Positions 3,001-6,000 of a stretch of DNA of 22,672 bases are shown one piece after another. This DNA is from Escherichia coli. GTDB lineage: Bacteria; Pseudomonadota; Gammaproteobacteria; Enterobacterales; Enterobacteriaceae. The stretch lies in assembly GCF_003334815.1 (NCBI RefSeq), contig NZ_QOWO01000051.1; one strand, 5' to 3'. The position numbers were made by a program. Each line of letters begins with the position of its first letter. Positions within the stretch are counted from its first letter, which is position 1.

Positions 3001-6000
3001 TATTGAGATTTTAAAATTGATTTGTGGCTATGTACTCATAAATAATACTTTCGGTGTCAGAAAATACTTTATCTATTACATTTAAAATCCTAGGTGAAAG
3101 ATATATAATGGCTACCTCACCCCCTAAAAAACTCTTTCCGATGCCACTCTACAACCCCTCAAAAGGGTAATTTTTACGCACCTGTGGCAACGCAATAATT
3201 TTTCCGTCAAAATCCCAGAATGACCTCTCAATGATCTCTCCGCCGTTTACCGCATCCAATACCAGTACCCGCATATTTTCATCCAGGCCAATCGTTCCTT
3301 TATCAAAGGCTTTATGATGTATCGCGCAAAGCGCCAGGCCATTGGGAATTTCACAAGGGCCACCATGTTGTTTCCATTTTATATGTGTCGCTTCCAGTGA
3401 GACGGTGGAGTTGCCGTAACAAATATTAAAGCTACATATTGCGCACTGGTAGTTATAAGCGCGTAATACATGTTTGCGAAATAATGGGTCACGCTGCTTA
3501 CGGATTTGCTGGAGAGCAAAAAAAGGCTCGTCAGCGATTTACTGGAAGCCATTGATATCCCTGGCAGTGAAATAATTGCGATCATGCTCGCAAATTTTCT
3601 GCTGTTCAAGCCTGCAAGCGAAGATATATTACCTTGATCTCATATGTTTTTTTACTTCCTGTGTGCCCTAATTGCCATGCGATGTTGCACCGACGCAAAC
3701 CGCCGTTTACGCCGGAGGAGTTAAAAGCGCTGATGGATGCGAATAAATCAAATTAATGAACGCTCACCTTTCGCGCCAAAACCGCAAAATTGCTTTTACA
3801 AACCTGTCAGAAATAATTCCCCGACGGGCTGCCGCGCTGAAATGACTGCTTCGCAGTGCCGTCGTCCAGTTCTCCGGTGACCGGTACGCTGAACCGTAAT
3901 ATCCCGTGCTTAAATCGTCCGGATCTTCATCAGGCGCGTTCGTCAGTCCTCTTTCACCTTGTTGCTGGAAGTCGACGAAAATAATATTGGCTAAAACATT
4001 ATTTTGATAATTGCCATAAATCGCTTCATACGCATGAGGGAAATTTTCTTTCCAGTACCAGGTGGTATCGCCGCAAAACCACGGTGCGTCAGTAATATTA
4101 TCAAGCTGAGAATGGTATTGTTTTAGATCCCTACGAAAGGCTTCAACCATATGATTAAAGTGTTGAGGGTGTGACGCGTAGTCACTGGTCATTAAGTCAA
4201 ATTCGCCTTGCATCCAGCATACGCCGAGGAATTTGTTCTGCGGATTTTTTGCCAGTGCGACTCGCGTTCTGCTGACTAAATCCTGGTACAGCGGAGTATC
4301 CATTCCCCAACGACAAGCATCATGGCTGGCTCCGTGCCGTTCTGAATATGTCCCTTCGCTGCCCGCGGTAAAAGCCGATCCGCCACGGCAACACGGAACG
4401 ATGAGAACCCCTGCATTATCAGGAATAAAGGGCAGTAATTTCCGTGCTATATGCAGTGCCTGGCCAACGGTGCCGTACTGTGTTTGATGATTCGTTGCCA
4501 GAGGATGGTGATAACCTAGCATATCCTGAACATCGTGTGGGCAGTGAGTCAGTGGAATAATGTCGTTAAAGTGACATGACGGGCCTCCGGGATGCGTATG
4601 CGCAAATCTCGCTAATTGTTTAATTCTGGGATGAGGCGCATCTTCCCCGTCCGGTAATGGCAGTCCTTCGCCATACGCCATGGCATTAGACTGACCAGCA
4701 ACGGTAAGAACATAGTAATAATCGGGCGATATTATTGCGTTCATATAATTTTCGCGTAATACAAATGACAAATTGATAGCAGGGCCCCTTTACCGGGGCC
4801 CTGAAGCGTTAGTTTTGTACTGTGACTTTATTATCCTTCACAGAGATCAAAACTGAATCAGTCACCGCTTTGCCGCCTGCAGTTTCACCGCCAATAATTA
4901 ATAAACTATTATTCCAGGGCAATGATACTCCGTAGGCCCGACCTTGCGATAATTCGCCCGATTTATCCCATTTCCCGTTATGCCAAAGATGAATATCAGC
5001 GCTATATGATTTTTTCAGGCCTTCATGCGCATAGTTCTTACCGTTCTGGTAATTTTCTCGTGAACCTTTGAATCCGGCCCCTCCGGCAAATATAAGTGAG
5101 TCATTGCTCATGCCTGCAAAACCGCCAGCGACGCCATCTGGTGATGCGACGGGAGCAAGCTTATTCCATTTTAAATTATTACCGGTGAAATCAAGTTCAA
5201 ATACGGCATCCGTTCGCAATCCTGGTTTGGCTTCGCCATTAATAAGCCAGGTTTTATCACCTTTATTCACAACCGCCGCACCAGCCGTTCCGTACCAGGG
5301 AGATTCGCCAGCGTAACTCCATTGCTGTGTAGAGGGATCAAAAGACAACAGAAACTTATTGAAGAAATAATCTTCTGCTTTTTTGTCAAAATAGTGGGCG
5401 TTGATTTTATCTATAGTGGTTGAATCTTTTCCAGCTTCGTTGAGATCTTCAAAATAGCCATTGAAGATATTCTGGTTAACACCGCCAGTAACATAGGCCT
5501 TGCCGTTGTGTACAAAAGTCACATGGCCCGCCATGCCCATCGGCGCGTGCGACATCAATTTAACCCAGCTATTGGTTTTGGGGTTGTATTTGTGTACGTC
5601 ATTAAATACCTGAGTCAAGCCCTCGCTGTTTTTGCCAATGCCGCCAAACACATACAGATTGCCATCAATAAATGCAGAGGTTGCTTGATCTCTCGGTCCG
5701 CCAGGGAATGCAGCTAACGCTGTCCATCTTTTATCTTTGGCCTGTGTATCCAGCTTGTACCATGCCGTACCTGCGCTACCTAAACCAATGTAGACAGTGT
5801 CGTTATCAATTGCTCCGGTACCACTTTTAAATGGCACAGGAGTTTCCGGTAATACAGACGCGTTTGCGGCAAATGAAGCCATTATGATAGTAAGCGCCGT
5901 TATTGTTTTATTCATTGTGACTGTCTCCTGTCTACTACAGTTTAAATGACACACCAATGCGATAACTGTTTTCCGATAAATTATCTCTGCCGTTGTAAAC

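What the first reader, a model, noticed from the sequence alone, without database searches (positions are those of the whole stretch)
4780..4803. Perfect GC hairpin inside the nanC-nanM-nanS operon
A 9-bp all-GC-rich perfect stem (cagggcccc / ggggccctg) with a 6-nt loop sits in the 64-bp gap between nanM and nanS. It is not followed by a clear U-run on the transcribed strand, so it looks less like a full terminator and more like an RNA stability or processing element, or a partial attenuator that would reduce nanS expression relative to nanC and nanM.
Basis: seen in the sequence. Interest (0 to 1): 0.3.

Follow-up and report, generated by a model that had tools for sequence, protein, structure and literature searches.

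The report
Conserved RNA hairpin ending nanM
A strong, evolutionarily maintained RNA stem-loop sits just after the nanM gene inside the E. coli nanC-nanM-nanS sialic-acid operon; it lacks the U-run of a true terminator and most likely marks a stable mRNA end for nanC-nanM, which makes it a real but ordinary kind of operon punctuation.

Summary
Window 4780-4803 is a perfect 9-bp stem (8 G-C pairs, 1 A-U pair) with a 6-nt loop. It lies in the 64-nt gap between nanM (4809-5915, -) and nanS (3764-4744, -), 5 nt after the nanM stop and 35 nt before the nanS AUG. It is not a chance feature: folding energy is -21 kcal/mol, and an equally GC-rich hairpin appeared in 0.7% of shuffled windows.

It is single-copy and matches no Rfam family. 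It is present in 5036 of 5426 complete E. coli genomes, and at least 98% of those keep an 8-9-bp stem. Other Escherichia lineages carry two different compensatory C-G to U-A changes. All three single-sided changes give G·U on the mRNA strand. More distant nanM orthologues have unrelated stems at the same position, whatever gene follows (nanS, nanX-nanY, a sialidase, or none).

No version has an adjacent U-run, and published transcriptomes report nanS induced together with nanC and nanM. The best reading, which is inferred and not shown, is a selected RNA stem-loop at the nanM 3' end. It would act as an exonuclease barrier or processing boundary, with at most weak termination.

This is a new member of a known kind, of low to moderate interest.

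The parts
4780..4803 (-). RNA stem-loop on the mRNA strand. The 5' arm is 4803-4795 (CAGGGCCCC), the loop is 4794-4789 (GGUAAA), and the 3' arm is 4788-4780 (GGGGCCCUG).
   Evidence: Sequence. Folding energy -21.0 kcal/mol. RNAalifold recovers it as the only substantial conserved helix. All 81 of 81 cells are paired, with 2 compensatory pairs and 2 G·U pairs.
4804..4808 (-). A 5-nt spacer (CGCUU) between the nanM stop codon and the foot of the hairpin. A ribosome terminating on nanM would have to open the 5' arm (inference).
   Evidence: The hairpin begins 5-11 nt after the stop in the orthologues that have one there.
4809..5915 (-). nanM (N-acetylneuraminate epimerase/mutarotase, YjhT), the upstream cistron. 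The hairpin is its 3' element.
4745..4779 (-). A/U-rich 35-nt single-stranded tail and nanS leader (CUAUCAAUUUGUCAUUUGUAUUACGCGAAAAUUAU). It has no U-run adjacent to the stem and no clear Shine-Dalgarno sequence. It is a candidate endonuclease entry region (inference). The motif (C/U)UAUC directly after the stem is conserved in Escherichia and in L129/L131.
3764..4744 (-). nanS (sialate O-acetylesterase), the downstream cistron in this lineage. The ORF is intact at 326 aa.
   Evidence: PGAP labels it a pseudogene.
5935..6651 (-). nanC (Neu5Ac-inducible outer-membrane channel), the first cistron of the operon.

Best explanation
The element is a selected RNA stem-loop that forms in the nanCMS transcript directly after the nanM stop codon.

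Proposed mechanism, which is inferred and not shown: RNA polymerase largely reads through it because no U-tract is adjacent, so nanS, or whichever gene lies downstream in other lineages, is still transcribed. After endonucleolytic cleavage in the A/U-rich unstructured spacer downstream, or after any 3' end generated there, the -21 kcal/mol hairpin blocks 3'-to-5' exonucleases such as PNPase and RNase II. This leaves a stable nanC-nanM message and uncouples its abundance from the more variable downstream cistron. A minor amount of pausing or termination at the hairpin may add to the effect.

Shown here: the structure is real, it is under selection, it works on the mRNA strand, it lacks a terminator tail, and it is linked to nanM rather than to nanS.

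Inferred: the decay-barrier role and differential stability of the transcript segments.
For: - **Structure.** It is a perfect, very stable hairpin and improbable by chance.
- **Conservation in E. coli.** It is single-copy and present in 5036 of 5426 complete E. coli genomes. Exact-variant counts are: reference 3301, loop variant 460, 1-nt deletion giving an 8-bp stem 660, deletion plus loop variant 184, and a variant with one G·U on the mRNA strand 332. Together these make 4937 of 5036 (98%) with an intact 8-9-bp stem.
- **Contrast with the spacer.** The adjacent spacer is more variable: over the whole 64-nt gap most genomes differ from the window by about 3 of 64 bases.
- **Covariation.** C-G to U-A changes occur at two different stem pairs in other Escherichia lineages (L015, L016, L019, L075, L094, L121, L126). 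All 81 of 81 cells pair, and 0 of 500 shuffles reach the observed pairing or covariation score. RNAalifold recovers the helix independently.
- **Strand.** All three single-sided transitions seen (042-type, L058/L090, and L131 versus L129) give G·U on the mRNA strand and would be A·C on the other strand.
- **Distant orthologues.** nanM orthologues at 59-78% identity have unrelated stems after the stop codon: 5-11 nt after it in L128 (GACUCUC/GAGAGUC), L129 and L131 (GCCCGGAGA/UCUCCGGGC) and L132 (13 bp), and tens of nt further on in Salmonella L127 (CCCACCUCC/GGAGGUGGG). Fold z-scores for the first 67 nt are -3.3 to -7.0 for L127, L129, L131 and L132.
- **No adjacent U-run in any version.** The tail score is 2.34, and the scan does not call it a terminator.
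- **Read-through appears to be needed.** Co-directional sialic-acid genes follow within 35-120 nt: nanS, nanX-nanY, or a sialidase autotransporter. Published transcriptomes list nanS as induced together with nanC and nanM (PMC3658417; PMC12871917).
- **Linkage to nanM.** The hairpin stays with nanM when nanS is lost (L010, L012, L094, L126).
- **Established knowledge.** Stable 3' stem-loops protect upstream mRNA from 3' exonucleases in E. coli, as with REP in malE-malF.
Against: - No transcript mapping, half-life or nuclease data exist for this junction. The Term-seq supplements searched report nothing there.
- The comparative data cannot separate a decay barrier from a weak terminator or pause site.
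- The 1-nt deletion allele, present in 17% of genomes, weakens the stem to -16 kcal/mol, so maximal stability is not required.
- Compensatory double changes in a palindrome can arise in one step by template-switch (quasipalindrome) mutation. The covariation therefore overstates the number of independent selective events.
- The metagenome sample was collected with a pattern that fixed the outer 5 bp, and E. coli genome counts are not phylogenetically independent.
- One orthologue (Aeromonas L130) has no hairpin. L128's fold is not significant against shuffles (z = -0.9).
Confidence: 0.45

Rival explanations
1. It is a leaky intrinsic terminator or attenuator. A fraction of polymerases stop or pause at the hairpin, which sets a fixed nanC-nanM to nanS transcription ratio. 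The effect may be modulated by ribosomes terminating 5 nt upstream, which would melt the 5' arm and favour read-through.
For: The stem is GC-rich and sits directly after a stop codon. The tail is A/U-rich (6 of the first 8 bases and 6 U in the first 12), and its score of 2.34 lies just under the usual TransTermHP-style cut-off of 2.5. L128 and L126 have somewhat more U downstream. The hairpin is retained where nanM is the last recognisable gene (L094, L126).
Against: No lineage has a U-run abutting the stem, although this is the most strongly selected feature of E. coli terminators. K. oxytoca L133, where the unit really ends, has a canonical hairpin followed by UUUUU. Functionally linked genes follow in the same direction, and nanS is co-induced.
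Confidence: 0.25
2. It is a relic or by-product. It would be the former terminator or end-hairpin of an ancestral nanC-nanM unit at the border of the leuX integration hotspot. It would now be kept by palindrome-correcting mutation and short divergence times rather than by a present function.
For: The nan operon is the usual border of one of the most dynamic E. coli regions (bioRxiv 10.1101/2020.03.26.007484). The downstream partner differs between lineages. IS1 insertions and a deletion junction lie at or inside the hairpin. Template-switch mutation can create concerted double changes (established knowledge).
Against: The structure persists while its sequence is completely replaced across nanM orthologues down to 59% identity. 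The neighbouring spacer diverges freely. No stem-breaking allele was among the five variants that cover 98% of 5036 genomes.
Confidence: 0.12
3. It is a translational element. The hairpin, possibly together with a weak (U/C)CAU:AUG(A/G) helix, would shape the nanS leader. It could limit nanS initiation or block 70S scanning and re-initiation from nanM.
For: nanS has no recognisable Shine-Dalgarno sequence. RNAalifold adds a 4-bp helix over the nanS start codon, with T/A 91, C/G 18, T/G 8 and C/A 1 across loci.
Against: The hairpin ends 35 nt before the AUG and does not touch the initiation region. It is retained without nanS and with other downstream genes. The extra helix is only 4 bp, and the association may be haplotype linkage.
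Confidence: 0.08
4. It is a DNA-level element, such as a palindromic protein-binding site or a recombination or cruciform site.
For: It is a perfect palindrome with a GGGCCC core next to a recombination-prone region. A deletion end-point lies within it.
Against: Complementarity is conserved while the sequence is not, and the distant versions are unrelated in sequence. The wobble variants pair only on the mRNA strand. It is single-copy with no related sites in the window or genome.
Confidence: 0.05

Closest known systems
Intercistronic mRNA-stabilising stem-loops in polycistronic operons (for example the REP hairpins between malE and malF in E. coli, and the puf operon hairpins of Rhodobacter capsulatus)
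   Same: It is a stable stem-loop in a short gap between co-transcribed genes and lacks a terminator U-tract. The upstream products (a porin and a periplasmic enzyme) are plausibly needed in higher amounts than the downstream enzyme. This last point is inference.
   Different: It is a unique, single-copy sequence and not a REP family member. Differential stability of the transcript segments has not been measured for nanCMS.
Rho-independent (intrinsic) terminators
   Same: It is a GC-rich 9-bp stem with a short loop directly downstream of a stop codon, and its folding energy is in the terminator range.
   Different: There is no adjacent U-run (3 U in the first 8 nt, tail score 2.34), and the scan does not call it. 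It sits inside an operon whose distal gene is co-induced.
REP/BIME repeated extragenic palindromes
   Same: It is an extragenic palindrome between genes, with a proposed role in protecting mRNA.
   Different: REP elements are imperfect palindromes of about 35 nt with a shared consensus, present in hundreds of copies per genome. This element occurs once per genome and has no REP consensus. A REP-like element does occur elsewhere in the window, around 16905-16975.

Membership tests
Rho-independent terminator | Stable GC-rich stem-loop | tested here: met
   9 bp, 8 G-C pairs, -21 kcal/mol.
Rho-independent terminator | U-rich tract immediately 3' of the stem | tested here: not met
   The tail is CUAUCAAUUUGU. 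It has 3 U in the first 8 nt and a tail score of 2.34. The consensus scan does not report it. A U-run is also absent in orthologues L125, L126, L128, L129 and L132.
Rho-independent terminator | Transcript 3' ends map to the tail, or termination is seen in vitro | not testable with these tools
   No 3' end for nanM or nanS sense transcripts appears in the Term-seq supplements searched. The operon is probably uninduced in those conditions.
Intercistronic mRNA-stabilising stem-loop | Stable hairpin in the gap between co-directional, co-regulated cistrons | tested here: met
   The gap between nanM and nanS is 64 nt. Co-regulation is reported in PMC3658417.
Intercistronic mRNA-stabilising stem-loop | Structure, rather than sequence, is conserved on the mRNA strand | tested here: met
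   Compensatory changes at two pairs, G·U only on the mRNA strand, and unrelated stems at the same site in distant orthologues.
Intercistronic mRNA-stabilising stem-loop | The upstream segment is longer-lived or more abundant, and this depends on the hairpin | not testable with these tools
   This needs rifampicin-chase, Northern or RNA-seq experiments with stem mutants.
REP/BIME | Many dispersed copies per genome sharing a consensus | tested here: not met
   Median of 1 place per genome, maximum 2, for a 32-nt query at E <= 10. It is unique in the window with up to 3 mismatches.
Any curated Rfam family | Covariance-model match | tested here: not met
   No match at the hairpin even at E <= 10 across window 3500-7500.

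The most novel reading that the evidence does not exclude
The hairpin would be a conserved modular junction of sialic-acid operons. Its structure sits within ribosome reach of the nanM stop codon and would couple nanM translation termination to the fate of the downstream RNA, through read-through, processing or re-initiation. Behind it, different accessory genes (nanS, nanX-nanY, a sialidase) have been exchanged at the edge of the leuX hotspot. It would then be a translation-sensing intercistronic regulator rather than a passive decay barrier.
Probability: 0.1. Interest if true: 0.5.

Novelty: new member of a known kind. Interest (0 to 1): 0.25.

Why it matters
If the reading is right, the hairpin explains how E. 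coli can set different levels for the porin and mutarotase (nanC, nanM) and for the esterase (nanS) from one NanR-controlled promoter. It would also explain why the nanC-nanM module stays intact while the DNA downstream of it, at the border of a highly dynamic genomic region, is repeatedly rearranged. In practice it gives a defined, testable cis element for studies of sialic-acid use by commensal and pathogenic E. coli. It is also a natural example of a strong, terminator-less insulating hairpin. It does not change any general concept.

Tried and rejected
- **Rfam.** The scan of 3500-7500 at E <= 10 gave only chance snoRNA and lncRNA hits and nothing at the hairpin.
- **Promoter and terminator scan.** The hairpin is not called a terminator, and there is no promoter-like site on the - strand in the gap.
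- **Dispersed-repeat idea.** Rejected, because the element is single-copy.
- **Hairpin carried with phage nanS-p genes.** Rejected. Homology to Stx-phage nanS-p covers only window 4520-4728, inside the nanS coding region.
- **Upstream TTG start for nanS (4771).** This would bring the coding region up to the hairpin. Rejected, because the TTG is not conserved (TTA in many strains) and the 326-aa ATG product matches 3PT5.
- **Metagenome pattern hits L083 and L123.** These are chance matches without nanM and were excluded.
- **MAFFT alignment of the distant orthologues.** L128, L129 and L131 were mis-registered, and the covariance model R1 did not reach them. They were compared by individual folding only.
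- **Literature.** Kalivoda 2013 and Steenbergen 2009 are not held. No paper found mentions a hairpin or terminator between nanM and nanS.
- **Genome-contig scan with NanM.** It returned only four loci, all close relatives.

Full report
**Observation**

The + strand of the window at 4780-4803 reads CAGGGCCCC TTTACC GGGGCCCTG. This is a perfect 9-bp inverted repeat with a 6-nt loop. It has eight G-C pairs and one A-T pair.

The neighbouring genes lie on the - strand.
- nanM is 4809-5915. It is 368 aa and matches PDB 2UVK YjhT at E = 2e-237.
- nanS is 3764-4744. It is 326 aa and matches PDB 3PT5 NanS over its whole length.
- nanC is 5935-6651.

The window is identical to E. coli AR_0069 and continues into fimB-fimH, gntP and uxuAB. 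The nanM-nanS gap is 64 nt. The hairpin starts 5 nt after the nanM UAA and ends 35 nt before the nanS AUG.

On the mRNA strand the element is CAGGGCCCC-GGUAAA-GGGGCCCUG followed by CUAUCAAUUUGUCAUUU.

**Is it more than chance?**

- The hairpin alone folds at -21.0 kcal/mol.
- The 96-nt context has z = -3.15 on the mRNA strand and -2.93 on the other strand.
- A perfect 9-bp hairpin with at least 8 G/C per arm appeared in only 0.7% of 300 dinucleotide shuffles of the window.
- The pattern with up to 3 mismatches is unique in the window, against 0 expected.

**What it is not**

No Rfam family matches it, even at E <= 10.

The consensus terminator scan does not call it. Only 3 of the first 8 tail bases are U, and a TransTermHP-style tail score is 2.34. 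For comparison, the 12-bp hairpin between fimH and gntP (17007-17031) is followed by GUGUUCUUUU.

It is not a dispersed repeat. A 32-nt query at E <= 10 finds a median of one place per genome in 5036 of 5426 complete E. coli genomes.

It is not carried with prophage nanS-p genes. Their homology to this region covers only window 4520-4728, inside the nanS coding sequence.

**Conservation within E. coli**

Exact-match counts for the five alleles I had seen are as follows.

| Allele | Genomes |
|---|---|
| Reference | 3301 |
| Loop G to A on the mRNA strand | 460 |
| One-base deletion giving an 8-bp stem and 7-nt loop | 660 |
| Deletion plus loop change | 184 |
| 042-type, replacing G-C with G·U on the mRNA strand (A·C on the other strand) | 332 |
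| Total | 4937 of 5036 (98%) |

No stem-breaking allele was among these five. The remaining ~2% of genomes carry other variants, which I did not characterise.

The rest of the 64-nt gap is more variable. Most genomes differ from the window at about 3 of 64 positions, and these differences cluster in the spacer.

**Covariation in Escherichia**

Loci found through NanM in other Escherichia species clusters carry double changes.
- L015 reads CAGGGCUCC-AGCAAA-GGAGCCCUG.
- L016 reads CAGGGCCUC-AGUAAA-GAGGCCCUG.

These are C-G to U-A changes at two different stem pairs.

A metagenome scan with a pattern that fixed only the outer five pairs returned 104 true nanM-3' junctions. Two further hits were chance matches without nanM. 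Every inner-stem variant kept pairing:
- U-A at pair 7 in five contigs;
- U-A at pair 8 in one contig;
- U·G at pair 6 in two contigs;
- the 1-nt deletion in six contigs.

I then counted pairs on nine distinct sequences.
- All 81 of 81 cells form standard pairs.
- Two pairs carry double changes and two carry G·U.
- 0 of 500 shuffles reach the observed pairing or covariation score.
- All slid registers are far worse (17-60% of cells paired).

RNAalifold on 105-120-nt segments recovers this helix as the only substantial conserved structure.

**Caveats on the covariation**
- The metagenome pattern imposed the outer five pairs.
- The sequences are closely related, so counts are not independent events.
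- Palindromes can acquire concerted double changes through template-switch mutation.

**Strand**

All three single-sided transitions observed give G·U on the mRNA strand and A·C on the opposite strand. They are the 042-type allele, the L058/L090 allele, and L131 compared with L129. Three of three is weak statistically (p = 0.125 under no strand preference), but it is directional.

**Beyond Escherichia**

Contigs encoding more distant NanM proteins show the following.

| Locus | NanM identity | Structure after nanM stop | Downstream |
|---|---|---|---|
| E. albertii L125 | 85% | 7-bp version of the same hairpin | degraded nanS |
| L126 | 86% | CAGGGCUCC/GGAGCCCUG | no recognisable gene |
| L094 | 90% (partial NanM) | CAGGGCUCC/GGAGCCCUG | no recognisable gene |
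| L128 | 77% | GACUCUC-GUGCA-GAGAGUC at the homologous position | nanX-nanY |
| Salmonella L127 | 78% | A/U-rich stem-loop starting 19 nt after the stop, then a different 9-bp GC hairpin (CCCACCUCC/GGAGGUGGG) further into the gap | nanX-nanY |
| L129, L131 | 71%, 68% | GCCCGGAGA-UAUC-UCUCCGGGC 5 nt after the stop, followed by UAUC as in E. coli | nanS (L129), nanS remnant (L131) |
| L132 | 59% | 13-bp hairpin 11 nt after the stop | sialidase autotransporter |
| Aeromonas L130 | 66% | none | transposase-like gene |
| K. oxytoca L133 | 57% | canonical hairpin plus UUUUU about 60 nt downstream | convergent gene; nanM ends the unit |

The first 67 nt after the stop fold significantly better than shuffles in the window, L125, L126, L127, L129, L131 and L132, with z from -2.4 to -7.0. 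L128 (z = -0.9), L130 and L133 do not. MAFFT and the small covariance model could not align these distant versions, so this part rests on individual folds.

**Which gene does it belong to?**

The hairpin stays with nanM when nanS is gone.
- IS1 abuts the foot of the hairpin in L012 and lies 14 nt from it in L010.
- L094 and L126 lack nanS.
- It is lost only in E. whittamii and E. sp. E1V33, where one shared deletion joins CAGGG to the inside of a divergent nanS remnant.

The element is therefore best described as the 3' hairpin of nanC-nanM.

**Function**

Published transcriptome summaries list nanS as induced together with nanC and nanM under NanR control (PMC3658417; PMC12871917). This argues that transcription passes the hairpin. 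No promoter-like site lies in the gap on the - strand.

No version of the hairpin has an adjacent U-run, although related sialic-acid genes follow in the same direction. The established behaviour of stable 3' stem-loops in E. coli is to block PNPase and RNase II and so stabilise the upstream message, as in REP at malE-malF.

I therefore favour an exonuclease barrier or processing boundary that yields a stable nanC-nanM RNA, with at most minor termination (confidence 0.45). This is an inference.

No 3'-end, half-life or nuclease data exist for this junction. The eLife 2021 Term-seq supplements contain only a Rho-dependent antisense 3' end inside nanS, and the TERMITe supplements contain nothing.

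The rivals are:
- a leaky terminator or attenuator, possibly relieved by the ribosome terminating 5 nt upstream (0.25);
- a relic of an ancestral nanC-nanM end kept by mutational bias (0.12);
- a translational role for nanS (0.08);
- a DNA-level site (0.05).

**Comparison and novelty**

It works like intercistronic stabiliser hairpins. It fails the defining U-tract test for intrinsic terminators and the multi-copy and consensus tests for REP.

I found no description of it in the papers searched. Two key J. Bacteriol. papers were not available.

It is a new member of a known kind. It is real, conserved and tidy, but not surprising, so interest is 0.25.

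Noticed in passing
window 3764-4744 (-); PGAP feature 4178-4744: RefSeq/PGAP labels nanS here, in K-12 and in many other strains as a pseudogene 'missing C-terminus'. The 326-aa ORF nevertheless matches the solved NanS structure 3PT5 from end to end. This is probably an annotation artefact.
   Followed up: partly
window ~4765-4768 with 4741-4744 (- strand): RNAalifold adds a weak 4-bp helix pairing (U/C)CAU in the spacer with the nanS AUG(A/G). Across 118 loci the variable pair is T/A 91, C/G 18, T/G 8 and C/A 1. It could be start-codon sequestration or only haplotype linkage.
   Followed up: partly
L012 (IS1B abutting the hairpin foot), L010 (IS1A 14 nt from it), L017/L018 4105-4125: IS1 insertions replace nanS right beside the hairpin in some E. 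coli strains. In E. whittamii and Escherichia sp. E1V33 a shared deletion junction lies inside the hairpin, joining CAGGG to an internal fragment of a divergent nanS.
   Followed up: partly
L127, L128, L129, L132 (downstream of nanM): The gene following nanC-nanM differs between lineages. It is nanS in Escherichia and L129, nanX-nanY (MFS transporter plus oxidoreductase) in Salmonella L127 and L128, and a BNR sialidase autotransporter in L132.
   Followed up: partly
window 2469-2501: A 15-bp perfect hairpin with a 3-nt loop lies between the stop of a DEAD/DEAH helicase gene (ends 2456, +) and a convergent hypothetical ORF (2503-2805, -). It also has no clear U-run.
   Followed up: no
window 16905-16975 and 17007-17031: Between fimH and the convergent gntP there is a REP-like palindromic element and a 12-bp perfect hairpin followed by GUGUUCUUUU. 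The hairpin looks like an ordinary, possibly bidirectional, terminator.
   Followed up: no
K-12 coordinate 4536716 (+), antisense to nanS (corresponds to the nanS body, window ~3764-4744): The Term-seq supplement of Adams et al. 2021 lists an antisense 3' end inside nanS with a ratio of 5.3. I take this to be a bicyclomycin-sensitive, Rho-dependent site. It implies antisense transcription running toward the hairpin.
   Followed up: no
L013 (plasmid pMTY18781-2, NZ_AP023207.1 88184-90657): A copy of nanC-nanM-hairpin-nanS' sits on a 94-kb plasmid in E. coli TUM18781. It is one of three plasmid-borne places found.
   Followed up: no
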